A stretch of DNA of 64,000 nucleotides from Minisyncoccota bacterium (GCA_051306005.1 JBPPMJ010000006.1:8361-72360); one strand, 5' to 3'. Shown: positions 10,114 through 61,976, counted from the first letter of the stretch. Notes: generated by a model from the sequence alone, not told the origin. Made by a program: numbers and translations.

Positions 10114-10170
10114 AAAAATACAGACATAAGTGCGATGAAATATGCAGGAGATTTTTCAAGGTATCAGTCA

Positions 10171-14322: not shown

Positions 14323-14351
14323 AGTTCACAACGACTTTGAGACTTGATAAT

Positions 14352-14374
14352 AAAAAGCGGCAATGCCGCTTTTT
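14352..14374. terminator. bidirectional intrinsic terminator
   Basis: aaaaGCGGCAaTGCCGCttttt palindrome with A-run and T-run on either side. Confidence 0.6.
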
Positions 14375-14394
14375 ATGCAACTACGTATATCTTG

Positions 14395-14797: not shown

Positions 14798-14838
14798 TAG
14801 ACAAATTGTTTCGTCCTGCCGATTCTGATTTCCAATTT

Positions 14839-14928
14839 TGGCGGAAAGGGAGGGATTCGAACCCTCGATACTGTTTCCAGTATGCCGCTTTTCGAGAGCG
14901 GTGCCTTCGACCACTCGGCCACCTTTCC
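14839..14928 (-). tRNA. tRNA-Ser(CGA), class II, CCA encoded
   Basis: GGAAAGG...CCTTTCC-G-CCA. Anticodon loop CTCGAAA. Long variable arm ACTG/CAGT. T-arm GAGGG-TTCGAAT-CCCTC. Confidence 0.85.
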
Positions 14929-41592: not shown

Positions 41593-41600
41593 AAAAGAAA

Positions 41601-43031
41601 TTATTTTTCAACGGTTTGGATGGAGAAATGTAAATCTTTGAGAAGATCGGCATTGTAGACGTATTCTTTTTCTTTGGTCTTGAGGGTGACGGTTACAGGA
41701 ATAGTGCCGACACCGGATTGTTTTTGAATCAGAAGTTTGTAATCATCCGCTTTTACCGTTTCTGGCAATTCGTATTTGAGGGTTGTACGCACGTCGCTTT
41801 GTCCAATTTCAACGTCTACGAAACCGCCAAAATATGTTTTATTGAAATCTTCGTTGGTAATAACCGCATTGATCATGGAACGTTCGAGAAACTTGGAGCC
41901 TTGTGGGACAAAAGCGCGCAAATACGTATGATAATCACTCGTGCGCCAGTCTCCGCGCGGAGCAGTATTGGTGTACGTATATACGACGGTTCCAATGGGC
42001 TTTTCGCCAGTAAAATCCGCTGTGTATTCCAATGTGCGTTTGATATAAAAATCAGTTTTCAGAGCACCCATATTCGCATCAACGAGCATTAGGTAATCAC
42101 TGTCCACATTCTTATTGACACTGCCATCCCAATGTACACTCTCAACGAGAGCCTGTAAGGAAGGATCTTTGAAGTAGATCATGACATCTTTGTTGCGCAT
42201 TTCGGTTTGAGCAAATGTCGCCAAACGAGGAATATTGGATACTGTGAAAGCGCGTGCCACGATCTCCGTCGCCAATTTTTTCATAATGGCCTTACGATTT
42301 TGTTTCAGTTCTGCCGGGACATCTTCCCCGAGATAAGCTCTCTCTACTCGGTCTTCCAGTTTTTGAGCGCCATCGGTACTTGTGTAAACATTGGTATCAC
42401 CTGGTATTTGAATGGGACCGGTAATTTCTAAAATACGATTAAAAGTCAAAGAGTTAACGCCGATGATACCATCAAATTTTTCACGTCCTCCTGCTAAGTG
42501 ATAGAAGTATTCCGCTTTTTCAGCGTTGGTTGGAAAATCTGGAGAAAAATTGGAATCACGAAAACCCCATTTCTTGAGCTGAAGTTTTCGTAGAAATGGA
42601 TAAGGAGGAGTGATACGCGTTGTGATACGTTGATCAAGAAGGTTAGCATCTTCCACAAAGGTAGAAACCACGGCGCCATTCTTGATTTTGATAATGGCGT
42701 ATTGTCCTAAAAAGCCTCCTCCTGGACGCAATTCATCACTATTCTGCAGGAGAATGAAAAAAGTGCGCGTCACATTATCCTGACGTGTGAATGTCTCCAC
42801 TAACGTATTGGTAACCTCAATTTCTTTTTTTGTATCAGGATCAATAGGAAGAAGCACGGACACCTTTTGAAACAGATTGAGAGAATTGGAGGCAAATTCA
42901 CTAGTATGAGTTTTTGCATAACGAAATGCAAACCATCCTCCTACTATGAGTAAGAGTAGTATGATTACAATGACAAGTCGCTTCTTCTTTTTTAGTTTGA
43001 GCATAAGGAAGAAAAAATAATGTACTTTCAC
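41601..43031 (-). CDS. DUF4012-domain membrane-anchored protein
   Basis: N-terminal TM. ELRPGGGFLGQYAIIKI signature of the DUF4012 family. Confidence 0.55.
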   Translation of the reverse strand: MKVHYFFFLMLKLKKKKRLVIVIILLLLIVGGWFAFRYAKTHTSEFASNSLNLFQKVSVLLPIDPDTKKEIEVTNTLVETFTRQDNVTRTFFILLQNSDELRPGGGFLGQYAIIKIKNGAVVSTFVEDANLLDQRITTRITPPYPFLRKLQLKKWGFRDSNFSPDFPTNAEKAEYFYHLAGGREKFDGIIGVNSLTFNRILEITGPIQIPGDTNVYTSTDGAQKLEDRVERAYLGEDVPAELKQNRKAIMKKLATEIVARAFTVSNIPRLATFAQTEMRNKDVMIYFKDPSLQALVESVHWDGSVNKNVDSDYLMLVDANMGALKTDFYIKRTLEYTADFTGEKPIGTVVYTYTNTAPRGDWRTSDYHTYLRAFVPQGSKFLERSMINAVITNEDFNKTYFGGFVDVEIGQSDVRTTLKYELPETVKADDYKLLIQKQSGVGTIPVTVTLKTKEKEYVYNADLLKDLHFSIQTVEK

Positions 43032-43194
43032 AGTGTATCAGGTAATAAGTGGTTTGAAAAGTCATTGAAATTGCGCTACAATGATTGTGTTAAAATAATG
43101 ATGGGTGATTGTATAGCTGATAAAGGACAACATTATAGAAGCATCAGTCTGAGACGATATAAGTATGATTGCGCCATCGCGTATAAGTGAGACA

Positions 43195-43268
43195 GTGGGT
43201 GTAGTACAATGGTAGTACACGACCTTCCCAAGGTTGAGACGAGGGTTCGATTCCCTTCACCCGCTCCA
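43195..43268 (+). tRNA. tRNA-Gly(CCC), CCA encoded
   Basis: GTGGGTG...CACCCGC-T-CCA. Anticodon loop TTCCCAA. T-arm GAGGG-TTCGATT-CCCTT. Confidence 0.8.
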
Positions 43269-43276
43269 TAATGTGT

Positions 43277-43502
43277 CTATACCGTACCGCTCGAACCTAT
43301 TTTGTCCGCAACGGCTGAATGAAACCATACTAAGGAAGTCAGCTCCGCCACTGCGACCCGCCCAAGCGGGATCGCCACCTCCCAGAAAAACTGCCTTTGC
43401 ATTCCGGATTTTGCGCGCGCCCGATTTTTTCTTTCAAAAAGGAAAAGTCAGTTTTTCTGGGCTGTTCTGCTCTTTGGTGCAGAGCGGCGGGGCTGTTTGC
43501 TG
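43277..43502. repeat. left copy of ~226-bp GC-rich imperfect inverted repeat with internal nested stems
   Basis: About 88% identical to the reverse complement of 50271-50497. Internal stems cccagaaaaactg/cagtttttctggg and cagcYccgcc/ggcggggctg. Confidence 0.75.
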
Positions 43503-43566
43503 TTTTTTACCTTACCACAATATCTAAACTTTAGATATTTGCTTTCTGTATATATGCTGATACTAT

Positions 43567-43788
43567 ATGGACAAGACAATACGAACAAAAGAATACGCTC
43601 GATTTATTGAGAAACTGCGTAAGGCACGGCTTGAGGCAGGATTGAGGCAAATTGATGTTGCCAAGAAAATCAAGCGCCCACAATCTTATATTTCCCGCGT
43701 GGAATCTGGGGAATATCGGTTGGATATTTTGGAAGTCAAGCGGTTCGCCAAGATTTACGGAAAGAGCGTGGATTATTTCGTGAAGTAA
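43567..43788 (+). CDS. XRE-family HTH transcriptional regulator
   Basis: ARFIEKLRKARLEAGLRQIDVAKKIKRPQSYISRVESGE is a Cro/C1 HTH. First gene of the island. Confidence 0.7.
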   Translation: MDKTIRTKEYARFIEKLRKARLEAGLRQIDVAKKIKRPQSYISRVESGEYRLDILEVKRFAKIYGKSVDYFVK

Positions 43789-43793
43789 ACCAT

Positions 43794-44486
43794 ATGAAAA
43801 AATGTTCATTTTGCGCGGAAGAAATTCAAGATGGCGCAGTTAAGTGTAAGCATTGTGGAGAATTTTTAACATATGCAACAAAAACAGAAGAGAATCATGT
43901 TTCAGTAAAAAATGATAATGTAAAAAAGTTTAGAAAAATTTCAATAAACGTCGCAAAATTTGTTCTGCGAGTAACGTTGTTTCTTGTTTTTATAGCCTCT
44001 ATTTTTATAGTCAGTCTTCTTCCAATTGGAGGATATGGTCTTTTGGATAGAGCTACAGCTTTTTTACTGATATCGGTGCCATGGAGCTTGCTGTTGGTGA
44101 TTGAATATTTCAGCATAAGAAAAAAACCTGTAGAAGAAGATTACAAAGGATTGAAAGGAATTGGTGGTTGGTTGGTGTTACCAATCATTGGTATGTTGGT
44201 ATCTGCTGCTACGGTAGTTGAAGGCGCTACTTTGATTGAAGGTGCTTCGCTACTGCTAAAGATTGTTGTTATACTATTTTTTGCGCTCTGGATTGTCTTA
44301 TTGGTCGCTTTCTTCTCTAAAAAGAGGGTAACTCCCGTTCTATTTATTTGTTTTTTGTTTCTAAACTTGTTCATTGAATTACTTGGTTTGCAGGAGGGAG
44401 GCTTTGTTACGGCATCTATACCATTGGTAATATGGTCTATTTATTTTATAAGATCAAAAAGAGTGAGGCTTACATTTATTGAGTGA
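43794..44486 (+). CDS. zinc-ribbon (CxxC...CxxC) polytopic membrane protein
   Basis: CSFCAEE...CKHCGE N-terminal ribbon then about 5 TMs. Start 6 nt after the XRE stop. Confidence 0.55.
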   Translation: MKKCSFCAEEIQDGAVKCKHCGEFLTYATKTEENHVSVKNDNVKKFRKISINVAKFVLRVTLFLVFIASIFIVSLLPIGGYGLLDRATAFLLISVPWSLLLVIEYFSIRKKPVEEDYKGLKGIGGWLVLPIIGMLVSAATVVEGATLIEGASLLLKIVVILFFALWIVLLVAFFSKKRVTPVLFICFLFLNLFIELLGLQEGGFVTASIPLVIWSIYFIRSKRVRLTFIE

Positions 44487-44762
44487 ACAAAAAAATGGTC
44501 AGACTGTTAATTTCTTAGTGAAAAAAGTATGAATATCGTGAAGAAAAAAAGAACATTGATTTGCGATGAAGCTGAGAAAAAGTGGCAGCAAGCGGGACCA
44601 AAGACTAGGATAGTCAGGTTTTTTTGGAATGGGGTTGCATTCAAATCTACCCTTACTCTTTGCAGGGTGCTTGTTGAAAGCGTAGATGGGAGAATAAAGG
44701 TTTGTCGATATCATCGCTGATAAGGTTTTTATTATCTTCTTTGGGTCTAATACCTCGTGGCT

Positions 44763-44805
44763 TGCGAAGATTTACGGAAAGAGCGTGGATTATTTTGTGA
44801 AGTGA
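44763..44805 (+). repeat. 43-bp direct repeat duplicating the 3' end of the XRE gene (43746-43788)
   Basis: 40/43 identical (tgcgaagatttacggaaagagcgtggattattttgtgaagtga). Not part of an intact ORF. Confidence 0.65.
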
Positions 44806-44827
44806 TAGCTTTAAGAAGAATAATTTT

Positions 44828-45316
44828 ATGAAAGAAACGAAAAGCTGGTTACGTTGGATTGCTGTACTTCCTGGGGCTTTAATTTTTGGCATTCTTGCTA
44901 CCTTCCCTTTGCATTGGCTAATCTATTTGGCATTTGCTCATGATGGCGCTACTGTATTTGGGATTGTGGAACTTAACGATGATGATTGGAGATATATTGA
45001 ATATTATCTCTACCCGTTTGTGATTGCGGTTACTTTCATTTATGCAGGTTATAGGATTGCGCCAAAACATAAGTTAAAAACAGCCGTCGCTCTTTTTGTA
45101 ATATACTTCACCGTGTGGCTGATTGCCAGTTATATTTCTCTATCCAAGGGCGATATTTACGGGTCATATTTACACTTCTCAGGAAGAACTATCTTCGCAT
45201 TGATAGGCGCTATTCTTGGAATATATATTGTAAAAAAGATTGACTCGAACGTGACGAGAGGCATTTCCGTAGAGAATTCCCAGGAGCAACACGATGAGAA
45301 TTCTACAGAAAATTAG
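44828..45316 (+). CDS. hypothetical 4-TM membrane protein
   Basis: 162-aa ORF with four hydrophobic segments and an acidic tail. Confidence 0.45.
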   Translation: MKETKSWLRWIAVLPGALIFGILATFPLHWLIYLAFAHDGATVFGIVELNDDDWRYIEYYLYPFVIAVTFIYAGYRIAPKHKLKTAVALFVIYFTVWLIASYISLSKGDIYGSYLHFSGRTIFALIGAILGIYIVKKIDSNVTRGISVENSQEQHDENSTEN

Positions 45317-45352
45317 GAAGGATATTGGTCAGAAATAGAAGAGATATTTGAT

Positions 45353-45820
45353 ATGAATAATGACTTAAGTTCTGAAAATAAAACAGAAGAACAAATAGAA
45401 ATCAATCCAAAAAGGACAGGGAATTTCTGGGAGTATTCGAAAACTATGGATCGAGAAGAAGCTTTGGATGTCTATAATATGTGGTTGTTGCATGTTAGAT
45501 ATTATCACCCTAAATTAGATGTTTTATTTCAAGGTGTGAGTATTCCTACATTTTTTCTTCCTGTTCCAATGGAATTATTGCAAGAAGTACCTAAAATATT
45601 AAAAAAATGCAAAAACGAAGATGGAACTTATGAAAACGAAGAATCTATAGAGAATAACATCGGGAAATATGCACATAGATATTATCCAAGAACTGGAAAT
45701 GACGAAGAAATTATCGATGGGATGGGTAGTGCTATAAACAGCAGACATTCTTTTGAGTTAATGCTTTCAAAGATTAAAAAGAATAAAGATGATTGGTATT
45801 TTGAATACAAAGAAATTTAG
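45353..45820 (+). CDS. hypothetical acidic protein
   Basis: 155 aa. Stop codon abuts the ATG of the next ORF (TAGATG). Confidence 0.45.
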   Translation: MNNDLSSENKTEEQIEINPKRTGNFWEYSKTMDREEALDVYNMWLLHVRYYHPKLDVLFQGVSIPTFFLPVPMELLQEVPKILKKCKNEDGTYENEESIENNIGKYAHRYYPRTGNDEEIIDGMGSAINSRHSFELMLSKIKKNKDDWYFEYKEI

Positions 45821-46141
45821 ATGAAACCAAACAATAAAAACATTTTAACAATTATAACCACAGCTTTTCTTGTTGTAGCTTTATCTGACGGATTGCCTTA
45901 CGGATATTTTACTTTATTGCGATTTATTGTATGTATAGTTGGTGTTTATCTTGCATACAAAATATATGAGGACAATAAAAAATCATTGCTGGTTTGGGTT
46001 TTTGGTTTTATAGCTATTTTGTTTAATCCAATTATTGTTATTCAGTTACAACGAGAGCAATGGTGGGTTATTGATCTCGTTGTTGGAATATTTTTTGTTT
46101 TATCAATTTTTCTAGTTAAGACAAAAATACGTAATGATTAA
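45821..46141 (+). CDS. hypothetical small 3-TM membrane protein
   Basis: 106 aa. Translationally coupled to the upstream ORF. Confidence 0.45.
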   Translation: MKPNNKNILTIITTAFLVVALSDGLPYGYFTLLRFIVCIVGVYLAYKIYEDNKKSLLVWVFGFIAILFNPIIVIQLQREQWWVIDLVVGIFFVLSIFLVKTKIRND

Positions 46142-46175
46142 ATTTTGTGAAGTAAATTAGTAAAATAGTAGGATT

Positions 46176-46703
46176 ATGTTTACATTGATTGCTGTTGTAT
46201 TAGCTGGAGTACTGTACTTTTTTGATCAAAATACAGGTGCGCTTTTAGTAGTTGTTGGAGTTGTTGCGAAGAACCTCGCTCCATTTATTTGTCTTTTGGT
46301 GAGCGCTCCTGGATTTTTTGTAATATTTCCTGACGATTCTAATAAGCGTAGCATGGCTAGATTCATTGTCGGTATAATAATCGCAACGTTTTTACAGGCG
46401 ATTTTATGGTTTTTTTATGTAGTATTTGTAATTAATCTAGTCTTGTCAGTAGGCACGGATGGAAATGTAGCTTTTTTAATCTGGGGTCTTACATTTTTTA
46501 CTATAAGTATTCCATTTTACTTTACTACACGTGAAATCAGAGAACATGCGGAGACAACGGGGCGTGCTGCTGATAACATGGAAGATGCTACGTTTATGAA
46601 ATCATATACAACGGATGATATGAAAAAAATAGAAACGAATCTTTGGTTTGTAAGGATATCATTTTTATTAGCAATTATTCTGGCAGGATTTTATTATCTA
46701 TAA
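46176..46703 (+). CDS. hypothetical polytopic membrane protein
   Basis: 175 aa with about 4 TMs. Confidence 0.45.
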   Translation: MFTLIAVVLAGVLYFFDQNTGALLVVVGVVAKNLAPFICLLVSAPGFFVIFPDDSNKRSMARFIVGIIIATFLQAILWFFYVVFVINLVLSVGTDGNVAFLIWGLTFFTISIPFYFTTREIREHAETTGRAADNMEDATFMKSYTTDDMKKIETNLWFVRISFLLAIILAGFYYL

Positions 46704-46925
46704 TGAATCCAAGCTCTTTTAATTAAGAAAATGTGCCAAATATCGATAACGTATTGAAATCGTCTACAATAATCGGAGTTTTATTAGTGGTACTTTCCTT
46801 TGCTTATTACTTTATAGTAAGACCTATATCTAAAGATGCATCTTTAGATAGTTGTCTTAAAAATGTTAAATGGGCATCCCAGAAAGATGAATGTTATAAG
46901 AGGTACTAATTTCTAGAGTCGAAAA

Positions 46926-47453
46926 ATGGGTCAGGTAAAATATCAAATCCAGTCCGATTTCATGGTGTTATGTGTATATATGGATGAATCAGATCAAATT
47001 AAAGAAGTTTATGCCAGGTTTGGTTTGGCAGTATATTCCGCCCAAGTACTTGAACTCCAAATGATTAATATGATTGTTGCATTAACATTGCCGGAAAGGT
47101 TTCAGATTAAACGAGATACCATTGACAATCTTTTTGATAAGCTTTTTGAAAAAACAATGGGAGGGTTAATGCAAGATTTCAAAAAAAGATTTGAATTAAC
47201 TGAAAAAGAAAATTTGTTATTAGATAAAAGTTTAGAGCAGAGAAACAGATTAGCTCATAGATATTTTCGAGAAAAGGCTGTGGATTTCATGAGTTTTGAA
47301 GGTAGATTAAAAATGATAGATGAGCTTATCATAATCAATGCTCACTTTGAAGAGTTGGATAAGATATTGACATACAGACACAGAGAATATACCAAAAAAT
47401 TTGGAGTTACTGAGGATGTCATAGAAGAAGAAATTAAAAAATTGTTATTATGA
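46926..47453 (+). CDS. hypothetical protein with HEPN-like Rx4H motif
   Basis: LEQRNRLAHRYF (R106-x4-H111) in an alpha-helical, K/E-rich 175-aa protein. Confidence 0.4.
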   Translation: MGQVKYQIQSDFMVLCVYMDESDQIKEVYARFGLAVYSAQVLELQMINMIVALTLPERFQIKRDTIDNLFDKLFEKTMGGLMQDFKKRFELTEKENLLLDKSLEQRNRLAHRYFREKAVDFMSFEGRLKMIDELIIINAHFEELDKILTYRHREYTKKFGVTEDVIEEEIKKLLL

Positions 47454-47644
47454 CTCAGCCCTCTCTATTTGCCCATTCCCGATATTTCCAAGAAATCCCA
47501 GAGCGGCTTGATTTCTCAAAGTTCTAGAGCGATTGTACTATTAACTAGCCATCCTCATCGGAGAAATGGAGAATAAAAATTACGAAGTTTGTTGTTCCCA
47601 AGGCGATAGCAGCCTATTCTGATTGCTATTAAGAAATTTATCTT

Positions 47645-48142
47645 TTGAAAATATATATGGAAAAACAACAAGGTAAAACTTTTTTTAAAGAGAGTTTGAA
47701 TTGGAGCGCTGATCATTTATTCTATATCTTTATTATCGGGGTCATAGGATTTTTACTAATATCTCACATATGGGGGAAAAAAGATCCCGAGGCTTTATTT
47801 GAGGCAACAACCCCATACAAGGCAGATTCGCGGTATTTTATCTATTTATTCCCGGATAGTAATTCGCCAAAAAATTATAGGCTTTCAGCCGATATTCTTA
47901 TAGGAGAGGGACCTGATCGTAACGATATTCAAGTAGAAGATATTTATCTTGAGGATGGGCGTGGCATATATTTTGGATGTGCCGTTCAGCTTAAAACTGA
48001 GAATTTCTGCAAGGATCAAGATGGGAAAGAGTGGATGATTGTTTTGAGTGATTGGGAAAAAGCGAAAACGATAAAAGAGATTCAAGATTCAAAGAAAGAG
48101 GTAGATGATATTGTTAATAGCATAATGAATGAAATTAATTAA
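47645..48142 (+). CDS. hypothetical protein with N-terminal TM
   Basis: 165-aa ORF. LFYIFIIGVIGFLLISHIW. Confidence 0.4.
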   Translation: MKIYMEKQQGKTFFKESLNWSADHLFYIFIIGVIGFLLISHIWGKKDPEALFEATTPYKADSRYFIYLFPDSNSPKNYRLSADILIGEGPDRNDIQVEDIYLEDGRGIYFGCAVQLKTENFCKDQDGKEWMIVLSDWEKAKTIKEIQDSKKEVDDIVNSIMNEIN

Positions 48143-48177
48143 TCACCACCCCAATTTTTCTTTTTGAGAAGAATGGT

Positions 48178-49053
48178 ATGTTTGAAAGAAGTTTGCTCAT
48201 ATTGATTTTGATCTTACAGGCCATATTCTCTGGCTTAGTTTTTGCTGGCAATGAGAGCTCTTTTAACTGGGAATCCCTGTTTTCTTTTTTGCAAATAGCT
48301 GTTGTTGTCTTGGGTTTTTTTTGGGGGTATTATCTCTTAAAGAAAGAAATCTCCTTCAAAAAGAAGTTGGAAATCCATGCGAAACTGACCAATATGCTTG
48401 TCAAAGGATTGCATGAATCTTTCTATTGGTTGGCTCCTTTTTTAATGAATCGCTTTTTTCTAGAAAAAAGTAATCTGAAAGATGGGAATGATTATTCAAC
48501 AAAAAGTCTTAGGGACAACAGTAAGGAGCTTGGTAAAAAAATAAGTGATTTTCAATCCGATTTTCTGAGATTTTACGAATTCTTCCAACTTTGGAAAGTC
48601 ATATTTTCTGAAAAGCTAGATAGGGAATCAAAATTTCTTTTGGATCTGGAAAATATTTTTTGTGAAGAACTTCGCACATATCAAGGGAAACTAATGGATT
48701 ATTCTATGCTGAGTCTTATGAAAGATGAAGCAACCATAGAGAAGGAAAGAAAAGAACTTTTAGACTTGGAAGAAAAGATTTCCAGGAAGAGGACTGCGTT
48801 AGCTAATGGTCTTGACAAATTTGTTTCAGATATGAGTAGAGAAGTTTTTAGTGGGCTATTTGATCGAAAGAAAAGTGTAGAAAGAGGATTGTTTGATCCA
48901 GAATTAGAAAATGCAAACAACGGCGATTCAGCGGTGATTTTGACGGACAAAGGGTTTGTTCGTCAGTCTTACCAGAAGACTGCTTTTCAAAAAGAATTTG
49001 GTGGTTTTAAAGAAAGACAACGAACGCTGAGAGAATTCTTGGAAAAAAATTAA
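48178..49053 (+). CDS. hypothetical membrane-anchored coiled-coil protein
   Basis: 291 aa. Two N-terminal TMs then K/E-rich helical region. Confidence 0.45.
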   Translation: MFERSLLILILILQAIFSGLVFAGNESSFNWESLFSFLQIAVVVLGFFWGYYLLKKEISFKKKLEIHAKLTNMLVKGLHESFYWLAPFLMNRFFLEKSNLKDGNDYSTKSLRDNSKELGKKISDFQSDFLRFYEFFQLWKVIFSEKLDRESKFLLDLENIFCEELRTYQGKLMDYSMLSLMKDEATIEKERKELLDLEEKISRKRTALANGLDKFVSDMSREVFSGLFDRKKSVERGLFDPELENANNGDSAVILTDKGFVRQSYQKTAFQKEFGGFKERQRTLREFLEKN

Positions 49054-49117
49054 CAATAACGAGCGTATTGGTTTGTATAAAACTTTCTTATTGTTTAGCT
49101 GAGTAAAAAGCTATATA

Positions 49118-50005
49118 ATGTCATTAATGGAACAAGAAACTCTCACAATAAAATTTGATGGCCAGAACCATCAGGTGGATGTTCAGACTTTTGTGTACTC
49201 CGTGCTCAATTTTACGACGGTCGTAAAGGAAGCGAATAAGAGAAACGGAGGGAACCCGATAAATATAAATATTAAGGCACCTGAAAAAGGGAGTCTTCTT
49301 GTCGATCTTGTAACGAACGCTGTCAATAACCCGACCCTGCTGAATGGCACGACTATTTTAGCGAGTACGATAGTTATCGTTGGCGGAGTTTATCAACTTC
49401 ACAAATTTATAAGTGGGAGAAAGACTAAAGAAGTAAAGACTGAAAATAGTGAAACTACTATTACGCTTGAAGACGGCTCAATTCTTACTATTGCGGAGAA
49501 TATTTACAATATCTACACGACAACTCCGGCTATACCGGATAGTATTTCTAAAAACTTTTCCGCTTTAAGCGAGGATCCAGCGGTAACAAACTTTGAAGTT
49601 TCTAGGAATGGAACAGAAAAAATTATTGAAGTATCAAAAGAGGATTATGCAAGAATGGCTATTAAGCAGCAGATCGAGACAGAAAATTCAAGAACTATTG
49701 TTGAGTCTGCAAACCTCTACATTTACAAGGTAGTTTTCGAAAAAACCGATCGAAAGTGGGAATTCTATCATAACGGTGATAAAATTTCTGCCAATATCTT
49801 TGATGAAGATTTCTTCAAGCTGATTGATAGAGGAGAGTCTTTTTCAAAGGGGGATCAACTAAAAGCTGATCTTCAAGTCACCCAGATTTTTGATGAATCC
49901 ATTGGTACCTATGTGAATCAATCCCATGCTGTTTTGAAAGTCTACGAGCATATTAAACGGTCAGAACCGATGGAATTGCCTTTTAATAAAACTATTGAGG
50001 ATTAA
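49118..50005 (+). CDS. hypothetical protein
   Basis: 295-aa ORF. Last gene of the island. Followed by hairpin cccgcga-ttcctttct-tcgcggg. Confidence 0.45.
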   Translation: MSLMEQETLTIKFDGQNHQVDVQTFVYSVLNFTTVVKEANKRNGGNPININIKAPEKGSLLVDLVTNAVNNPTLLNGTTILASTIVIVGGVYQLHKFISGRKTKEVKTENSETTITLEDGSILTIAENIYNIYTTTPAIPDSISKNFSALSEDPAVTNFEVSRNGTEKIIEVSKEDYARMAIKQQIETENSRTIVESANLYIYKVVFEKTDRKWEFYHNGDKISANIFDEDFFKLIDRGESFSKGDQLKADLQVTQIFDESIGTYVNQSHAVLKVYEHIKRSEPMELPFNKTIED

Positions 50006-50270
50006 GGGAGTCCCGCCCGCGATTCCTTTCTTCGCGGGCTGGGATGTGTGCGCACGGGTGGGTGGGGCAAGCACAACAAGATTTGCTTGTGCTTTAGCAC
50101 AAACCACTTGAAAGGAGTTACCACTAACCATACCGAAACGGTGAGCAACAGAGCTACTGCCAAACGTGGATATTGCGCCGACGCGAGGATGAAGAAATGA
50201 GTGAACAAAATATTGCCTGATGTGGTAAAATAATCATAAGCTCATTCTTTCAGCCTTCGCGACGGACTCA

Positions 50271-50497
50271 AAAGCAGACAGCCCCGCCGCTCTGCACCAA
50301 AGTGCAGAACATCCCAGAAAAACTGACTTTTCCTTTTTGAAAGAAAAAATCGGGCGTGCGCAAAATCCGAAATGCGAAGATAGTTTTTCTAGGATGGAGC
50401 GATCCCGCTTTAGCGGGTCGCAGCGGCGGGGCTGGCTCCCTTAGTATGGTTTCATTCAGCCGTTGCGGAGAAAATAGGTTTGAGCGGTACGGTAAAG
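50271..50497. repeat. right copy of ~226-bp inverted repeat (reverse complement of 43277-43502)
   Basis: See left copy. Internal stems conserved, with wobble-compatible substitutions. Confidence 0.75.
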
Positions 50498-50516
50498 TCA
50501 CTCATTAAACTCTCTT

Positions 50517-52667
50517 TTATAAGGTTTGGCTTTTTTTGTTTAGCCATTGGTTGAATGCGCTATTGAGATGTGCCATAGATGCTTTGACGAAGGTGACGGC
50601 ATAGTGTTCCGTGGGAGTGAAGGTATAGGTAGGAAAACGCATATCTGTCAGTGTAATGGTATCTGGAAGTGAGGCATGTGTGCCAGATGCAAGAAGAGTG
50701 CGTATCATCATTTCACGATTTTTCTGATGGACGTTTGAACTCATCGGTGAAAGGGGCGTTGTATGCGTTTGCGTGGACAATGGGATATCTGATGATGTAG
50801 CAGATGTATCGGTAGTCGGAAGAATGGTATCAATAGCTGGAGTTGGTTGTTCCAGATCCACATTCTCTATTGGCTCGACGGATTCTTCTGTGGTTGGATC
50901 AATATCGGTCACGACGTCGATAGAAGACATTTTTGTTGGTTCATTGATTGTTGTCCATATCCATCCACCCTCTTTCATTTTCTGATAAACGGCATTTTCT
51001 TTAATGGGTGTATCCGTTTTATATTTTATTTTTTGCAGAATTTCGCCATTCGGTGCACGTAGCTCTATTTTTCCTTTCTGATTGGGCAAACTGAAGTGAG
51101 CATGTTCACGGGTCAGTGTAAATTTTTGTTTGGGCTTGAGGATGATATCTTGATTAATCGGATGATTGATGAGTTTTTTCCATCCGGTTGTAATGCCAAA
51201 ACCGCGGAGATTAACTGCTTTTTTGTGACGATTTTCTAAGATGAGCCATTCGTTGTCTGTGTCTTTGCCGACAGGGTTGGCAACGAGTGCGATGATACGA
51301 ATTTTCGGAGGATCATAAGATTCTATTTTCACAGTGAAAGTTTCGAGAGTATCATCTTTACCATCAGTTGTTTTGAGTGTAACGTTATAGCGCCCGTTTT
51401 TTTCATAGGTATGTGTCGTATTTTTCAAATAACTCTTGTGTCCATCACCGAAATTCCAAGTATATTTGAGCGTATCGCGATCGACATCTTTACCACGCGC
51501 ATAAAATTGAAGAGCTATATTACTAAAACCTTTCTTTGGAATTTTTTCACGTGTTTCAGGCAGATTGTTGAGGCTATTTGGCGCGCCAGGAGTCGGTGTA
51601 CCGCCTCGCCATTCTGTTGCGGTATAGTTGAGCGACACATCATCTTTACTGGTAGCGTATTGCGCGGTATTGATGAGTATGTTCTGCGCATCGAAGAGTG
51701 ACAGTGTTTCTTTGGTGTTATTAAGGGCAAAGGTAAAGTCTGTGTCTGAAATGAGCAAATAGCCATTGGGTGTGATGAATGTCTTATTCGGAAAAACATA
51801 TTTACCCGATTTGGTGGCATCACGGATACTCCAGCCACTGATGTCTTGCTTTTTTTCTCCTGCGTTGAAAAGTTCAATAAATTCTCCCATGTCTTGTTTC
51901 GCTTTTGGATTAGGGAATATTTCATTGAAACGGATAGCGGACGGAGTCAAGGATGCGTTGTCGGCTATTGGTAGCGTACCGGGTAATGAAGGCGATGCTG
52001 AACAACGATTCTCCGTACTGGCAGTTGGAGTAGGCGTGAGAGCAAATTCTGGCAACCAATTGCCAGTAGAGGTATCACGTACTAGACTCGTACCTTCTTC
52101 CGGATTATTTTCAATCATTATCTGAGAAAAACTATTTTTAGGTAGAAAGCAGTCAGTAATCTTTGGAGGGACACAAACACCCCATGTGACACTGTCAATG
52201 AGCTTCTCCTTGTCATCAAAGATGGCAAGGCTGTTGTTGTTAGCTAATATCGGTGACACTTCATTTTTATTTTGGACGTCAAATAGAGAGATAAAAGAAG
52301 CCTTACCACCTTTGTTGGTCCATAGAAGAAATCCATGTGGCTCAATGGTGTCTGTTTTGTGAAACGGGTGTGGTGTATCACAATCAAGTGTTTCAAATTC
52401 ATGTAAAAGTGTGCCACGTGGTGTTTTGTCACCTTTAGTTTTTTTCCGTAACTGCCAATCAGAGATATTAATTGCATGATCGGTAGTGTTATAGAGTTCT
52501 ATAAAATCATCGTTTGTATCTTGACCAACGATTTGCACCTCGCTGATAATTACTGGCGGAAGGGTCTGGGCATGGACCGATGTTTGAGGGTGAGCAAGGA
52601 AAAGGGGACAGAGAATTATAGTATGGAAAACTATTTGTAGGGGTACATTGTTGATTTTAACGCGCAT
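50517..52667 (-). CDS. secreted protein with two lamin-tail (LTD) domains and a PKD domain
   Basis: Signal peptide. LTD-like IISEVQIVGQDTNDDFIELYNTTDHAINISDWQL and IRFNEIFPNPKAKQDMGEFIELFNAGEKKQDISGWSI. PKD motif YTWNFGDGHKSY...HTYEKNGRYNVTLK. Confidence 0.65.
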   Translation of the reverse strand: MRVKINNVPLQIVFHTIILCPLFLAHPQTSVHAQTLPPVIISEVQIVGQDTNDDFIELYNTTDHAINISDWQLRKKTKGDKTPRGTLLHEFETLDCDTPHPFHKTDTIEPHGFLLWTNKGGKASFISLFDVQNKNEVSPILANNNSLAIFDDKEKLIDSVTWGVCVPPKITDCFLPKNSFSQIMIENNPEEGTSLVRDTSTGNWLPEFALTPTPTASTENRCSASPSLPGTLPIADNASLTPSAIRFNEIFPNPKAKQDMGEFIELFNAGEKKQDISGWSIRDATKSGKYVFPNKTFITPNGYLLISDTDFTFALNNTKETLSLFDAQNILINTAQYATSKDDVSLNYTATEWRGGTPTPGAPNSLNNLPETREKIPKKGFSNIALQFYARGKDVDRDTLKYTWNFGDGHKSYLKNTTHTYEKNGRYNVTLKTTDGKDDTLETFTVKIESYDPPKIRIIALVANPVGKDTDNEWLILENRHKKAVNLRGFGITTGWKKLINHPINQDIILKPKQKFTLTREHAHFSLPNQKGKIELRAPNGEILQKIKYKTDTPIKENAVYQKMKEGGWIWTTINEPTKMSSIDVVTDIDPTTEESVEPIENVDLEQPTPAIDTILPTTDTSATSSDIPLSTQTHTTPLSPMSSNVHQKNREMMIRTLLASGTHASLPDTITLTDMRFPTYTFTPTEHYAVTFVKASMAHLNSAFNQWLNKKSQTL

Positions 52668-52773
52668 ATTTTTTTATCTCTTTTTCTTTAGCATACCGAA
52701 CTTGATAAGAATTGCAAAGTGTGCTATACTAGAAGAAACAATAGTATTTTATAGATGATGTATCCTAGTTTAC

Positions 52774-53085
52774 ATGACTGAAAAGAGAAAAAAAACCGTG
52801 AATTTGACAGCCTTGCTTGTAGAGAGCGTTTTTGGTAATCTGCAGATCTTTTTGGATGGGATTTTGGCTGGTGCTTCTGAAGCGACACGTGCATTAACCA
52901 CAAAAATTGCTTTGCATGCCTCACTTTTCGTACTGGTTTTGCTGGGCATTATTTTTGCTTTGGTTGGTGTCGCTCAATTTATAGAAGCTCATTATCAGCT
53001 TGCGGGTATTGGAGCAATCGTCGTGGGGAGTGCTTTGTTGATACTAGTCTTTCTGATACGTCTTTTCTCTCGGGAAAGTATATAG
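52774..53085 (+). CDS. YqjE/DUF1469-like (holin-X-like) two-TM membrane protein
   Basis: Amphipathic N-terminus then two TMs (LHASLFVLVLLGIIFALVGV, LAGIGAIVVGSALLILVFLI). Confidence 0.4.
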   Translation: MTEKRKKTVNLTALLVESVFGNLQIFLDGILAGASEATRALTTKIALHASLFVLVLLGIIFALVGVAQFIEAHYQLAGIGAIVVGSALLILVFLIRLFSRESI

Positions 53086-53134
53086 TGTGTAGAGCTACCT
53101 ATTCAATAAAATAATTATTTTCATACAAAAACGT

Positions 53135-53389
53135 ATGGCAAAGAAAAAAATACTCGATACGGTCAGGGCAACGGTAATGGATACCCTAGATGATAGTCGT
53201 ATGCAGGCTGAAAAAGAATTAGCAAAGGCGAAACAGTATTTTGATGCTTCCCTGAAAAAAGTGAGTGAGTATGTGAAGAAAAATCCGAAGCAGGCGACGG
53301 CGGTATCCGCGGGTATCGGTGTGGCCTTGGGTACGGCCTTAACTCTTTTGACGGGAAGCAAGAAACCGAATTCGAAAAAGAAAAAATAG
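53135..53389 (+). CDS. YqjD/ElaB (DUF883)-like protein
   Basis: Helical N-terminus. KKNPKQATAVSAGIGVALGTALTLL C-terminal anchor then basic tail. Typical DUF883 layout. Confidence 0.45.
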   Translation: MAKKKILDTVRATVMDTLDDSRMQAEKELAKAKQYFDASLKKVSEYVKKNPKQATAVSAGIGVALGTALTLLTGSKKPNSKKKK

Positions 53390-53500
53390 GCCAGAATAAG
53401 AACGAGTGGGCCATGTCATTTTACAAGAATTCGTCTCGTTTGGGGCGAATTTTTGTTCATAGTCGAGAGATTTTAGCATTGATGTGGCATTAGGGATGAT

Positions 53501-54268
53501 ATGAAGTACTTCATTATCACATCGTTATTGAGTGTTCTCGTAGTATCTGGTTTCGGATACTGGTTTTTATGGAGTCATGATCAATCTTTCATATTGTCTA
53601 ATACGAATCGTCCTTTCATAGAGGCAAAGTGGGCACAGAAAGATATATCCACAGAAGGGTTGGTTGCATCACCCACGACAGATACCGTTTCGATACCGCC
53701 TCAGACTCATACAACATCACCAGAGACAACAGGTACACCAAATGCATCTGCCGTGACTCCTCAATCGGTACCCGCATCTTCACACTTAGAGGATGACCAA
53801 ACAATAACCATAGTCAATCGTCTCATGCGGAGCGGTTTTACAATACCGGCAAAACCTCGCAACATTGATACGATTGTTCTGCATTCGTCCTATGATGCTA
53901 TGGGGCCAGATCCTTTTTTAGTCAGTGGCATTATCAAGGAATACGAAGCATATGGAGTGAGTGCGCACTACCTGATTGATCGTGAGGGTATCACTTACCA
54001 GCTGGTGCGAGATGAACATATCGCATACCATGCAGGGGTGGCTGTGGCACCTGACGGAAGAAAAAATGTTAATGATTTTTCTTTAGGCATTGAAATTGTT
54101 AACACGCAAACAGGAAAAATGACGGATGATCAGTATCGGGCGGTAAACGCGCTTATTGACATGCTTAAAAAACGATATACGATTAAGTTTGTGGTGGGGC
54201 ATCGAGATATTGCTCCGGATCGTAAGACTGATCCATGGAATTTGAATTGGCAGAAAATTCATGAATGA
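53501..54268 (+). CDS. N-acetylmuramoyl-L-alanine amidase (amidase_2/PGRP fold)
   Basis: N-terminal TM. IVLHSSYD ... AHYLIDREG ... AYHAG ... GIEIVN ... VVGHRDIAPDRKTDP. Confidence 0.75.
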   Translation: MKYFIITSLLSVLVVSGFGYWFLWSHDQSFILSNTNRPFIEAKWAQKDISTEGLVASPTTDTVSIPPQTHTTSPETTGTPNASAVTPQSVPASSHLEDDQTITIVNRLMRSGFTIPAKPRNIDTIVLHSSYDAMGPDPFLVSGIIKEYEAYGVSAHYLIDREGITYQLVRDEHIAYHAGVAVAPDGRKNVNDFSLGIEIVNTQTGKMTDDQYRAVNALIDMLKKRYTIKFVVGHRDIAPDRKTDPWNLNWQKIHE

Positions 54269-54272
54269 GTAG

Positions 54273-54593
54273 ATGACATTGGTACGTATGGGTTATTCTT
54301 GGCACCTCATTATCGGAGAAAAACACCACCGCCTCCTCTTGCGACAAGCGGAGCGGACGATAACGATGCGTGAATGGACAGATCAGCGTGATCTTGGACA
54401 AAAAGTATTTCAGGCATTGACTGATATGTTCGCGGAGCAAAAGCTTCATCCGGAACAAGTCAGTGAGTTTTTTGTGGAATCTTTTTTGCCAGATACGTAT
54501 ACGTCGTCGCGTATTGCCGAAACTTTGAAAAGAGTGTATATTTTTGGTACGGTTGCCTTGACGAATGTCAATGGAAATGGAACGTCGTTATGA
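54273..54593 (+). CDS. hypothetical small protein
   Basis: 106-aa ORF with no motif. Weak hairpin/T-run at ~54684-54705. Confidence 0.3.
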   Translation: MTLVRMGYSWHLIIGEKHHRLLLRQAERTITMREWTDQRDLGQKVFQALTDMFAEQKLHPEQVSEFFVESFLPDTYTSSRIAETLKRVYIFGTVALTNVNGNGTSL

Positions 54594-54933
54594 GTTGTAT
54601 TGAAAGCGTGCCGTACACTATCCGAAACATATTGAAGTGTTCATTCTGAATACAAAAAATAACGAATAGTTTTTCTTTACAAAGGCTTTTAAAAGCCATT
54701 TTTTTCAGTGGATTTGACAGAGAAAAAGAACTTTGTTACACTACTCGGTATTCATATTGAAAGTTGAAGACTTTCAGACTTCTCCCGTCTGAAAGGTAAT
54801 GTTTTTATAAGGGAATGGAGTGCAATATCGCCATCGTTACAACGCAATAGTGTTATTTATCCGATAATCTCATTTGTCCTACTTGTTTCAAGAGTCTGGT
54901 TGAAGCAAGGAGTGTCCATATGAGTGTCTTTTT

Positions 54934-58344: not shown

Positions 58345-58382
58345 ACACGTTTTCTTCATTCTTTACTTCTTCAAGCAACATT

Positions 58383-61300: not shown

Positions 61301-61976
61301 GCGTATTCCAAAAACTGAAGCGATTCTCGCCGATATGGACGGACAAGTGACTCAGATTACCAAAGAAAGTGGCAAGGTGGTGAAAATAACCGTGGAAGGA
61401 AGTGACAAAAAGTCCTATGAATATCAGGCGCCGGCCAATGTGGCTCTACGAGTCAAAGAAGGTGATCTCATTGGTGTCGGTTCTATATTGTCCGAAGGCC
61501 ATCTGGATCTTCACAAGTTGTTTACAGTGATGGGTCAAGAAGCTGTTCATCGCTATATCGTGCGTGAGATTGAAGAAATTTACGCTGCCCAGGGTGAAGG
61601 TATCAACGACAAGCATATCGAAGTCATTATTCGCCAGATGCTCTCCCGTATCCGTGTGACTGATCCGGGTGATACGATGTTGCTCCCGGGTGATATCGTC
61701 GAAAAAGACCAGTTCTTGGAATCGAACGAAGAAGTGCTCGGTACTGGTGGGCGTGAAGCAACTGGTGAAGCGATGGTGCTTGGTATTACCAAAGTGGCAT
61801 TGTCTACGGAATCTTTCCTCTCTGCCGCGTCCTTTATGGAAACTGCTCGTGTCCTTATCAATGCTGCCATCGCCGGCAAAGAAGACCGTCTGCGTGGTTT
61901 GAAAGAAAATGTTATCATCGGACGCCTCATCCCGGCTGGTACCGGCTACCGCGGACCGAAGACAGAAAAAGTATAG
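58383..61976 (+). CDS. rpoC: DNA-directed RNA polymerase subunit beta'
   Basis: 1197 aa. Zn-binding [20 protein letters not shown] and catalytic [14 protein letters not shown]. Confidence 0.97.

What the first reader, a model, noticed from the sequence alone, without database searches (positions are those of the whole stretch)
43195..50520. tRNA-Gly-adjacent, AT-rich 6.7-kb island of ten small genes bracketed by ~226-bp inverted repeats
Directly 3' of tRNA-Gly(CCC) is a 226-bp GC-rich element at 43277-43502. Its near-identical reverse complement at 50271-50497 closes a block of ten tightly packed plus-strand ORFs. The block opens with an XRE regulator and a zinc-ribbon membrane protein; six or more of the ten are small membrane proteins, and one carries an HEPN-like motif. 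Base composition inside is visibly more AT-rich than the flanking housekeeping DNA: 45.3-49.0 kb is dominated by A/T runs. There is no integrase, transposase or phage structural gene, so this is neither a standard prophage nor an IS. The layout (regulator first, then membrane effectors plus a putative RNase-fold protein, with terminal structured repeats) would fit an uncharacterised mobile defence or host-interaction cassette, but the function is unknown.
Basis: partly seen in the sequence, partly recalled or inferred. Interest (0 to 1): 0.8.

Follow-up and report, generated by a model that had tools for sequence, protein, structure and literature searches.

The report
Recombinase-less cargo cassette beside tRNA-Gly
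The repeat-bracketed island is real, and it is the gene-carrying half of a mobile element family common in tiny "Patescibacteria" bacteria that normally travels with a large serine recombinase gene, which is missing here.

Summary
tRNA-Gly(CCC) is followed by a 232-nt arm, whose inverted copy (90% identical) closes a block of 11-12 plus-strand ORFs. The block has 35% GC against 43% outside.

The arms are not IS ends or a mis-join. Each arm consists of:
- the last 14 codons plus stop of a large serine recombinase (LSR) gene, which is the P' half of an LSR attachment site;
- a ~190-nt conserved four-helix palindromic core (14 of 27 pairs covary).

Homologous arms occur in at least 12 metagenomic or genomic loci of Patescibacteria. 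Where contigs are long enough, the layout is the same: tRNA | LSR module bounded by inverted copies of the LSR 3' end | cargo module bounded by inverted arms, usually opening with an XRE gene. Cargo varies and includes restriction-modification genes, HEPN proteins and membrane proteins.

Homology breaks at the same nucleotide (5' of TGTCT) in both window arms and in host-joined arms elsewhere. The window lacks the LSR module. Distant relatives keep the flanking synteny but hold other genes in the slot.

Verdict: an LSR-less cargo cassette of a poorly described LSR element family. A defence role is plausible but unproven. What the structured core does, and how two inverted P' ends arose, remain unresolved.

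The parts
43195..43268 (+). tRNA-Gly(CCC). Its encoded CCA end is the host side of the left junction.
   Evidence: ARAGORN and Rfam. The same tRNA sits next to DUF4012 in relatives L064 and L066.
43269..43273 (+). Left junction spacer TAATG, between the tRNA CCA end and the P' half-site. The right junction has TAATGAG in mirror image.
   Evidence: Read from the sequence.
43274..43318 (+). P' half-site, which is also a remnant of the last 14 codons plus stop of an LSR gene (CLYRTARTYFVRNG*).
   Evidence: tblastn hit to the LSR C-terminus. Aligned with intact LSR 3' ends in L045, L023, L044, L022 and L067.
43324..43512 (+). Left copy of the ~190-nt conserved four-helix palindromic core.
   Evidence: Covariance-model hit of 209 bits. 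Fold z-score -3.8. Covariation statistics.
43520..43538 (+). Perfect palindrome ATATCTAAAcTTTAGATAT. It is the presumed XRE operator, just upstream of a weak TTGCTT-16-TACTAT promoter and an apparently leaderless ATG.
   Evidence: Unique in the window; 0.05 matches expected by chance. The promoter was read by eye and was not picked up by the consensus scan.
43567..43788 (+). XRE-family HTH regulator (73 aa).
   Evidence: Pfam HTH_3 at 1.8e-12. An XRE gene follows the arm on the same strand in the window and 7 other loci.
43794..44486 (+). Zinc-ribbon plus DUF2569 polytopic membrane protein (230 aa).
   Evidence: Pfam. 90% aa identity to a gene in the different cassette of L054.
44529..44720 (+). 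63-aa ORF conserved with L054.
   Evidence: 82.5% aa identity to L054 1468-1659.
44764..44802 (+). Remnant of the last 13 codons of a second XRE gene, marking a cassette-fusion scar.
   Evidence: Direct repeat D1. tblastn at 100% over 13 aa.
44828..46909 (+). Five small ORFs: 162-aa TM protein, 155-aa soluble protein, DUF6804 TM protein, 175-aa TM protein, and 58-aa single-TM protein.
   Evidence: ORF list. Pfam DUF6804 at 1.4e-26. Hydropathy scan. The 58-aa ORF resembles L054 4755-5078.
46926..47453 (+). HEPN-like protein. The true start is probably Met19 at 46980.
47645..49053 (+). Two ORFs (165 aa and 291 aa) with N-terminal TM anchors and no family assignment.
49118..50005 (+). 295-aa protein of the PDC-S42 / LAPAL / phrog_3243 family.
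   Evidence: PADLOC PDC-S42 at 1e-32, full length. phrog_3243 at 9e-44. NCBIfam LAPAL_fam at 3e-56. No PDB relative.
50006..50269 (-). Conserved non-coding, hairpin-rich region just inside the right arm.
   Evidence: 82-84% identical to L054 331-656 and L051 1426-1853. Aligned at 82% mean column identity with 1-nt indels, so it is not coding.
50262..50450 (-). Right copy of the structured core.
   Evidence: Covariance-model hit of 208.5 bits. Fold z-score -6.8.
50456..50500 (-). Right P' half-site and LSR-tail remnant (*LYRTAQTYFLRNG*).
50501..50519 (-). Right junction: 16 nt of host DNA ending in TAATGAG, then the LTD/PKD gene stop codon (50517-50519).

Best explanation
The block 43269-50516 is the cargo module of a large-serine-recombinase (LSR) integrative element of a family widespread in Patescibacteria. 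It sits at the CCA end of tRNA-Gly(CCC) and has no recombinase module of its own.

Shown:
- Each arm begins with the P' half of the family's attachment site, which also encodes the last 14 codons of the LSR reading frame.
- A ~190-nt core follows, whose four-helix pairing is maintained by compensatory changes.
- In autonomous relatives the order is: tRNA CCA end | LSR module bounded by 120-137-nt inverted copies of the LSR 3' end (P arms) | intact inverted P-P' site | cargo module bounded by inverted P' arms | host DNA.
- Homology breaks at one and the same nucleotide in every copy.

Inferred:
- The cassette arrived by LSR-catalysed site-specific recombination at the tRNA end. It is now either mobilisable only in trans or a fossil.
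- The XRE protein represses its own leaderless promoter through the palindrome at 43520-43538, and so controls the downstream operon of membrane proteins, a HEPN-type nuclease candidate and a PDC-S42/LAPAL protein.
- This cargo is most simply read as phage- or competitor-directed (abortive-infection-like), as in sister cassettes that carry restriction-modification genes.
- The hairpin-rich cores, one facing each incoming gene (the tRNA and LTD), most likely act as strand-symmetric terminators or insulators that seal the cassette off from flanking transcription. A role as accessory recombination DNA is not excluded.
For: Arms and junctions:
- The arms are homologous to LSR 3' ends. A full LSR with Resolvase, Recombinase and Zn_ribbon_recom domains runs into the arm in L045, and the tail peptide is conserved.
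- Junction line-up: the intact P-P' site is present in L022, L023, L044, L045, L063b and L067prox. Host DNA is joined directly to P' in WL, WR, L063a and L067dist, with the break exactly 5' of TGTCT.
- The three-site comparisons S1/S2/S3 in L067, L078, L079, L063 and L077 share a core GAG or GTG. This is the reverse complement of the tRNA discriminator plus CCA.

Recurring architecture:
- The two-module layout next to a tRNA recurs in L052, L063 (twice), L067-L076 (at least 8 assemblies), L078 and L079. L077 has only the LSR module.
- An occupied/empty pair exists at tRNA-Ser: L052 against L034.
- The cargo varies while the arm-XRE polarity is conserved.

Structured core:
- 94.8% of cells form canonical pairs.
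- 14 of 27 pairs show changes on both sides.
- The covariation score is 0.357, against 0.150 in shuffles (0 of 500 reached it) and at most 0.10 when partners are slid.
- Arms of other lineages that lack this core still fold into GC-rich hairpins.

Context in the window:
- Synteny is conserved but the slot content differs in relatives.
- There is no intact LSR in the 64 kb.
Against: - Both window ends are host|P' junctions in inverted orientation. Canonical serine recombination with a non-palindromic overlap (the shared core looks like GAG/GTG) cannot produce this in one step, so the route to the present structure is unexplained.
- No empty site could be recovered. The nearest relatives share only 46-49% LTD identity.
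- No evidence was found for a circular form, an inverted form, or an LSR elsewhere in this genome.
- The defence role rests on a candidate family (PDC-S42) that NCBI names a putative phage structural protein, and on a HEPN assignment whose fold match is unspecific.
- The terminator/insulator role of the core is inference only. The U-tracts are weak, and the fold is far more elaborate than a terminator needs.
Confidence: 0.7

Rival explanations
1. The island is an invertible (phase-variable) segment. The two arms are recombination sites in inverted orientation, and an LSR, or homologous recombination, flips the 6.8-kb block.
For: - Inverted arms with site-specific tips.
- In relatives the LSR module is bounded by 96-100% identical inverted repeats, as expected if flipping or gene conversion is continuing.
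- L023 and L045 differ by the orientation of the LSR body relative to its own 3' end, arm and XRE gene.
Against: - The window arms are only 90% identical, so they have not been homogenised recently.
- There is no LSR in the window.
- Both flanks read inward and XRE appears to have its own promoter, so flipping would change nothing obvious.
- Only one orientation is seen in the available contigs.
Confidence: 0.12
2. The arms are two copies of a structured non-coding RNA gene, or of a long 3'-UTR/terminator element, that happen to flank acquired genes. The repeat matters as RNA, not as a recombination site.
For: - Strong, covarying structure.
- Both copies are sense to the incoming tRNA and LTD transcripts and end in U-rich tails.
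- The sense strand folds slightly better than the antisense in 13 of 17 copies.
Against: - No Rfam family matches, even at E<=1.
- G-U cells (11) equal A-C cells (12) and make up only 2% of cells, which is not the signature of a one-strand RNA.
- The structure is always fused to an LSR half-site and found in LSR elements.
- LSR-element arms in other lineages have different sequences.
Confidence: 0.1
3. The block is a non-autonomous DDE-type transposon, or a mobile insertion cassette bounded by MITE-like terminal inverted repeats.
For: Long terminal inverted repeats around passenger genes, with no transposase inside.
Against: - There is no target-site duplication. The flanks read ...CCATAATG and ...TTTAATGAG, which mirror each other rather than repeat directly.
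- The tips are homologous to a serine-recombinase gene end, not to IS ends.
- There are no other copies in the 64 kb.
Confidence: 0.03
4. The block is a remnant of a prophage or phage satellite.
For: - An XRE repressor comes first.
- Two products match PHROG families (phrog_3243, phrog_12893), and one matches the NCBIfam family 'putative phage structural protein'.
Against: - There are no capsid, terminase, portal, tail or replication genes.
- The four arm sequence patterns tried gave no real match in IMG/VR contigs.
- The cargo is mostly small membrane proteins.
Confidence: 0.05

Closest known systems
SCC/SCCmec-type cassette chromosomes and their recombinase-less tandem cassettes, mobilised by CcrAB large serine recombinases (PMC11470126; PMC6222049)
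   Same: - LSR-dependent genomic cassettes inserted at the 3' end of a conserved gene.
- They accumulate side by side.
- Some lack their own recombinase and are moved in trans.
- Their cargo is enriched in anti-phage defence genes.
   Different: - The target here is a tRNA CCA end, not rlmH.
- SCC cassettes are delimited by short direct and inverted site sequences, not by 130-370-nt inverted arms.
- SCC has no internal inverted attP copy, no LSR reading frame running across the crossover, and no conserved four-helix core.
LSR-encoding prophages and integrative elements with attP next to the integrase gene (phiC31, Bxb1, TP901-1 type; from my own knowledge)
   Same: - Resolvase, Recombinase and Zn-ribbon domain architecture.
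- A short common core.
- attL-like and attR-like junctions.
- The attachment site lies at the integrase gene end.
   Different: - Known attP sites are about 50 bp and occur once per element.
- Here the element carries a second, inverted, intact P-P' site.
- Both modules are bounded by long inverted repeats.
- The window copy has two P' ends and no integrase.
Invertible segments with long inverted repeats and crossover sites at their outer edges (phage P1 C segment/Cin, Mu G/Gin; from my own knowledge)
   Same: - A segment of several kb bounded by inverted repeats of hundreds of bp.
- The recombination sites lie at the outer tips.
- The serine recombinase gene sits next to the segment.
   Different: - Those use small serine invertases plus an enhancer.
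- They switch the C-termini of tail-fibre genes.
- No alternative coding outcome is visible here.
Tycheposons of Prochlorococcus (10.1101/2020.12.28.424599)
   Same: - Cargo-carrying integrative elements at tRNA genes in streamlined genomes.
- The integrase is at one end, and a minority carry an LSR.
- They build variable islands.
   Different: - Most tycheposons use tyrosine recombinases.
- They carry replication modules.
- The paper does not describe inverted-repeat-bounded modules for them.
Integron gene cassettes with attC sites (from my own knowledge)
   Same: - Promoter-poor cargo units delimited by structure-conserved, sequence-variable palindromic sites.
- A recombinase gene lies beside the array.
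   Different: - Integrons use a tyrosine recombinase acting on folded single-stranded attC.
- Each cassette has one attC.
- There is no tRNA target.
C-protein (XRE)-controlled restriction-modification cassettes and other XRE-led defence operons (capH-type; PADLOC hits)
   Same: A small XRE regulator with a palindromic operator comes first, followed by potentially toxic effectors. Sister cassettes are literally XRE-RE(-MTase).
   Different: The window cargo contains no recognisable restriction-modification system or other validated system.

Membership tests
LSR-mobilised integrative element | Encodes a large serine recombinase (Resolvase + Recombinase + Zn_ribbon_recom domains) | tested here: not met
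   None of the ten island products scanned has these domains. tblastn of two family LSRs against the 64 kb finds only the 14-codon tails in the arms and a ~64-aa fragment at 14598-14789. The feature is met in relatives L045, L023, L049, L052, L054, L063, L067, L077, L078 and L079.
LSR-mobilised integrative element | Ends are junctions between host DNA and attachment-site half-sites that occur joined (attP-like) elsewhere | tested here: met
   Both arms start at the same nucleotide of the P' half-site. The intact P-P' site is seen in six loci. However, both window ends are host|P'; no P|host end is present.
LSR-mobilised integrative element | Insertion at a specific conserved target (here a tRNA 3' CCA end) | tested here: met
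   The window arm starts 5 nt after the CCA of tRNA-Gly. In relatives the elements abut tRNA-Leu, -Lys, -Ala, -Arg, -Gly and -Ser ends.
LSR-mobilised integrative element | Occupied and empty alleles of the same site | tested here: inconclusive
   For the window, only distant relatives were available (46-47% LTD identity). They keep the synteny but hold other genes and no arms in the slot. A clean occupied/empty pair was found for a related element at tRNA-Ser, L052 against L034.
DDE transposon / composite transposon / mobile insertion cassette | Transposase gene, or IS-type ends, plus a target-site duplication | tested here: not met
   No transposase domain. No direct duplication at the flanks. 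The tips derive from an LSR gene end.
Invertible DNA segment (serine invertase type) | Inverted sites, an adjacent recombinase, and both orientations observed | tested here: inconclusive
   Inverted sites are present, but there is no adjacent recombinase. Only one orientation appears in the available contigs. Reads could not be examined.
Prophage / phage satellite | Capsid, terminase, portal, tail or replication genes | tested here: not met
   Only family-level hits to phrog_3243, phrog_12893 and LAPAL_fam. The four arm patterns tried gave no real match in IMG/VR contigs.
Known or candidate anti-phage defence system (PADLOC) | All component HMMs of a system are present | tested here: met
   The single-gene candidate PDC-S42 matches at 1e-32 over its full length. 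This is a candidate family only. No paper in the library mentions it, and NCBIfam names the same family a putative phage structural protein. No other island product hits PADLOC except the generic XRE.
HEPN superfamily (for 46926-47453) | Conserved R-x4-6-H motif in an all-helical bundle | tested here: met
Any Rfam RNA family (for the arms) | Covariance-model match | tested here: not met
   Only tRNAs reach the gathering threshold. Nothing matches at E<=1 across 43000-50800.

The most novel reading that the evidence does not exclude
Patescibacterial LSR elements are built from symmetric modules: one recombinase module and one or more cargo modules. Each module is bounded by long inverted repeats whose tips are attachment half-sites, so neighbouring modules are separated by attP-like sites of alternating orientation. 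This would let a single LSR flip, stack, exchange and leave behind modules independently. It would be a serine-recombinase cassette system with features of both shufflons and integrons. The ~190-nt four-helix core would be a new structured nucleic-acid motif required for it. The window would then show a normal 'parked' cargo module rather than a decayed element.
Probability: 0.3. Interest if true: 0.8.

Novelty: new variant of a known kind. Interest (0 to 1): 0.6.

Why it matters
Patescibacteria (CPR) have tiny genomes, and their mobile elements are poorly characterised. Searches of the paper library for serine recombinases in this group returned nothing relevant.

The LSR family found here is very large: 7995 of the 8000 candidates scored had E<=1e-30, at 70-88% identity across several candidate classes. 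Its elements appear to be a main route by which these organisms swap restriction-modification, HEPN and membrane-protein cargo at tRNA genes.

The architecture offers three things:
- compact, naturally modular LSR/att pairs with tRNA-end targets, which are of interest for genome engineering;
- a testable case of recombinase-less cargo cassettes;
- a strongly covarying 190-nt motif of unknown function.

For annotation, recognising the arm (a P' half-site plus hairpins) gives a simple way to delimit accessory cassettes in CPR MAGs.

Tried and rejected
Searches that led nowhere:
- Rfam at gathering and E-value thresholds found nothing for the arms.
- A genome-contig scan with an 18-mer from the arm returned only 16 chance hits, which blastn confirmed as chance.
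- Four viral-contig scans gave no real hits (checked).
- My first homologous-protein run used only the first 45 aa of the LSR by mistake. It showed the Patescibacteria affiliation but wasted a search.
- Exact look-ups of the DUF4012 and ThrRS products found nothing.
- Literature searches for PDC-S42 and for serine recombinases in CPR found nothing relevant.

Ideas rejected:
- The ORF that runs through each arm (97 aa and 77 aa) was considered as a gene. The only conserved frame is the LSR tail, so it was rejected.
- The arm as a 5' leader of XRE was rejected. The XRE gene has its own operator and promoter-like sequence downstream of the arm, and many arms are not followed by XRE.
- A target-site duplication was looked for and not found.
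- A palindromic crossover dinucleotide would explain the two inverted P' ends. The three-site comparisons point instead to a GAG/GTG core.

Inconclusive results:
- The 217-nt inversion between L067 and L070/L075 has no obvious flanking repeat and was not pursued.

Full report
**Observation.**

ARAGORN and Rfam place tRNA-Gly(ccc) at 43195-43268. The repeat finder, MAFFT and blastn agree on the inverted repeat. Its arms lie at 43273-43504 and 50270-50501, 232 nt long, 90% complementary, with 23 differences and no third copy in the 64 kb.

GC is 0.352 between the arms, 0.426 outside and 0.50-0.53 in the arms. Eleven to twelve tightly spaced plus-strand ORFs fill the interior.

Independent Logan contigs from two sequencing runs reproduce the interior and the LTD side and break inside the arms, as a k-mer assembler does at a repeat. 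A mis-join is unlikely, because each arm is uniquely linked to its flank by its 23 private differences.

**What the arms are.**

No Rfam family matches them. One metagenome scan with an 18-mer from the arm returned real homologues in a dozen contigs. Three things then emerged.

1. In its own orientation, the arm is followed by an XRE gene on the same strand in the window, L022, L023, L037, L045, L049, L055 and L054.
2. In L045 a complete large serine recombinase gene (Resolvase + Recombinase + Zn_ribbon_recom) runs into the arm and stops inside it. L023, L049, L052 and L054 carry LSR genes beside the arms.
3. The first 45 nt of each window arm are therefore the last 14 codons plus stop of an LSR frame: CLYRTARTYFVRNG* on the left and *LYRTAQTYFLRNG* on the right. 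The peptide is conserved across the family (CLYSLARTYFIRNP*, CLLDKVRNYFEQNPND*).

**The remaining ~190 nt.**

This part folds into a closing stem with three internal hairpins. A covariance model built on 17 copies retrieves 18 sense copies at 113-216 bits. On that alignment:

- 94.8% of cells form canonical pairs.
- 14 of 27 pairs show changes on both sides.
- The covariation score is 0.357, against 0.150 for shuffles (0 of 500 reach it) and at most 0.10 for slid partners.
- Insertions sit at hairpin tips and are themselves palindromes.

G-U cells (11) equal A-C cells (12), and together they make up only about 5% of cells. The pairing constraint is therefore strand-symmetric. This argues against a classic one-strand ncRNA. 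It fits either DNA-level palindromes or hairpins that must form on transcripts of both strands.

**Architecture of the family.**

Longer contigs give a consistent picture.

L067 is reproduced in at least eight independent JGI and ENA assemblies (L068-L076). Its order is:

- host gene
- arm(+) 5871-6240
- six minus-strand cargo genes ending in XRE
- arm(-) 9480-9817
- 137-nt inverted copy of the LSR 3' end (9813-9949)
- LSR(+) 10001-11533
- CCA end of tRNA-Leu

The same two-module layout occurs in several other loci:

- L063, twice, converging on tRNA-Lys and tRNA-Ala.
- L052 at tRNA-Ser, where the cargo is XRE, a 263-aa protein without Pfam match (presumed restriction enzyme) and a cytosine methyltransferase recognised by its GGPPCQ motif.
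- L078, Pacebacteria.
- L079, Staskawiczbacteria.

L077 has the LSR module alone.

The LSR module is always bounded by 120-137-nt inverted repeats at 96-100% identity. Cargo arms are 149-370 nt at 90-96% identity. In L078 and L079 the arms lack the window-type core but still fold into GC-rich hairpins.

**Junctions.**

I aligned all arm tips. In L067, L078, L079, L063 and L077 I also compared the three sites of each element: host|P', the internal inverted P|P', and P|tRNA.

- Homology breaks at the same nucleotide, 5' of TGTCT (TATAT in L078 and L079).
- The only sequence common to the three sites is (TG)GAG or (TG)GTG, which is the reverse complement of the tRNA discriminator plus CCA.
- The window's left end reads tRNA-Gly...GCTCCA-TAATG|TGTCTATACC, and the right end reads LTD-stop-16 nt...TAATGAG|TGACTTTACC.
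- Both are host|P' junctions of the same kind as L067 5871 and L063 ~910.

This pattern is the signature of site-specific recombination, not of a random duplication.

A related element gives an occupied/empty pair. L034 has tRNA-Ser joined directly to an arm, while L052 has a 4.3-kb LSR-plus-RM element between them, with the 12-nt core CCGCCAAAATTG present at the junctions.

**Is the island an insertion?**

The LTD protein is identical to an NCBI 'Minisyncoccota bacterium' MAG protein. The next relatives are only 46-49% identical.

Two of them, L064 and L066, keep rpoBC...Amidase_2...LTD, then a slot, then tRNA-Gly(ccc), DUF4012, ThrRS and the cation ATPase. Their slots hold 2.9 kb and 1.1 kb of other genes, with no arms. 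So the block is not ancestral core DNA, but a precise empty site was not recovered.

By subtraction, the empty site would put the tRNA CCA end about 21 nt from the LTD stop codon.

**Cargo.**

- XRE (HTH_3, 1.8e-12) is preceded by a unique perfect palindrome at 43520-43538 and a weak promoter read by eye, with an apparently leaderless ATG.
- The Zn-ribbon/DUF2569 protein and the 63-aa ORF are 92.5% identical in DNA to a block inside the otherwise different L054 cassette.
- A 13-codon XRE remnant at 44764-44802 marks a fusion scar. The island is therefore a mosaic rather than one designed operon.
- 49118-50005 matches PADLOC PDC-S42 (1e-32), phrog_3243 (9e-44) and NCBIfam LAPAL_fam (3e-56, 'putative phage structural protein'). 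It has no PDB relative.
- The other products are small membrane or anchored proteins without informative matches.
- Sister cassettes carry MamI-type restriction enzymes, a cytosine methyltransferase with its presumed restriction enzyme, an AbiU2-like HEPN protein, a sigma-70 region-4 protein, and VKOR and cupredoxin-like proteins.

A defence or exclusion role is thus plausible for part of the cargo, but it is not demonstrated.

**Mechanism.**

Shown:
- The arms are LSR half-sites plus a structured core.
- The family integrates at tRNA CCA ends.
- Modules are bounded by inverted repeats.
- The window lacks the LSR module.

Inferred:
- The cassette entered by LSR recombination and is now dependent on a recombinase supplied in trans, or is inert.
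- XRE autoregulates the operon.
- The cores insulate the cassette from read-through by the tRNA and LTD transcripts, and from its own operon reading outward. This would explain why pairing is kept on both strands and why unrelated arms in other lineages are also hairpin-rich.

Unresolved:
- With a non-palindromic overlap, canonical serine recombination cannot create two inverted host|P' ends or excise the LSR module. It would only invert it, which may be why L045 and L023/L067 differ in LSR orientation.
- I could not determine the overlap dinucleotide or find a circular junction.

**Comparison and novelty.**

The closest known systems are:

- SCC-type cassette chromosomes, including recombinase-less tandem cassettes that carry defence genes and are moved by CcrAB (PMC11470126);
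- LSR prophages with attP beside the integrase gene;
- long-repeat invertible segments such as the P1 C segment;
- tRNA-targeting tycheposons (10.1101/2020.12.28.424599).

None of them combines a tRNA-CCA target, an LSR reading frame that crosses the crossover point, an internal inverted attP copy, inverted-repeat-bounded modules, and a conserved four-helix core.

The paper library holds nothing on serine recombinases in CPR beyond a passing mention in two versions of an inovirus survey. I therefore rate the element a new variant of a known kind. The window's copy is an ordinary, recombinase-less member of that family.

Noticed in passing
window 12926-14928: A second, decayed LSR element lies in the same window. 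Its parts are:
- an XRE-like ORF at 12926-13099 (45% identical to XREs of sister cassettes);
- a 307-aa ORF at 13188-14111 with no Pfam match;
- a ~64-aa LSR fragment at 14598-14789;
- a P-arm-like AAATTGGAAATCAGAATCGG at 14809-14838, abutting the CCA end of tRNA-Ser(cga) at 14839-14928(-).

The junction is homologous to the L052/L034 tRNA-Ser junction.
   Followed up: partly
window 44764-44802 and 43787-44734: A 13-codon remnant of an XRE gene 3' end (100% aa identity to the island's XRE) sits upstream of the third membrane-protein gene. The preceding Zn-ribbon/DUF2569 plus 63-aa block is 92.5% identical to L054 1454-2395, which lies in a different cassette. The island is therefore a mosaic of at least two cassettes.
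   Followed up: partly
window 50006-50269: A ~250-nt conserved, hairpin-rich, non-coding region lies just inside the right arm. It is shared with L054 and L051 at 82-84%, and its terminal hairpin shows compensatory changes. Its function is unknown and it has no Rfam match.
   Followed up: partly
L052 124-243/1643-1762; L067 9813-9949/11400-11536; L077 9792-9928/11391-11527; L078 9697-9833/11388-11524; L079 9660-9794/11390-11524: In five independent loci the LSR gene is bracketed by 120-137-nt inverted copies of its own 3' end at 96-100% identity. This suggests that the recombinase module itself flips or undergoes gene conversion. L023 and L045 differ in exactly this orientation.
   Followed up: partly
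L067 8069-8285 versus L070 2198-2414 and L075 835-1051: A 217-nt stretch inside a cargo gene is present in inverted orientation at 100% identity in other samples of the same population, which changes the ORF structure. No obvious flanking inverted repeat was found. It may be an intragenic inverton or an assembly variant.
   Followed up: partly
L034 3881-4535 versus L052 1-4934: This is an occupied/empty pair at tRNA-Ser(gct). A 4.3-kb element (LSR, XRE, a presumed restriction enzyme and a cytosine methyltransferase recognised by motif) sits between the tRNA CCA end and a pre-existing arm. The core CCGCCAAAATTG is present three times, in alternating orientation.
   Followed up: yes
one search hit list (P0004, P0055, P0074, P0077, P0082): Many 40-79-aa N-terminal LSR fragments are called as genes in the middle of long Patescibacteria contigs. 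Some are due to frameshift-rich long-read assemblies, as L063 shows. Others may be genuinely split or decayed LSR genes.
   Followed up: no
window 39850-43031 and 50517-61976: The flanking backbone is syntenic with Moranbacteria-like relatives at only about 46% protein identity. It comprises the cation ATPase, ThrRS, DUF4012 and tRNA-Gly on one side, and LTD/PKD, two small ORFs, Amidase_2 and rpoB/rpoC on the other. The slot downstream of tRNA-Gly(ccc) is therefore a long-lived variable hotspot.
   Followed up: yes
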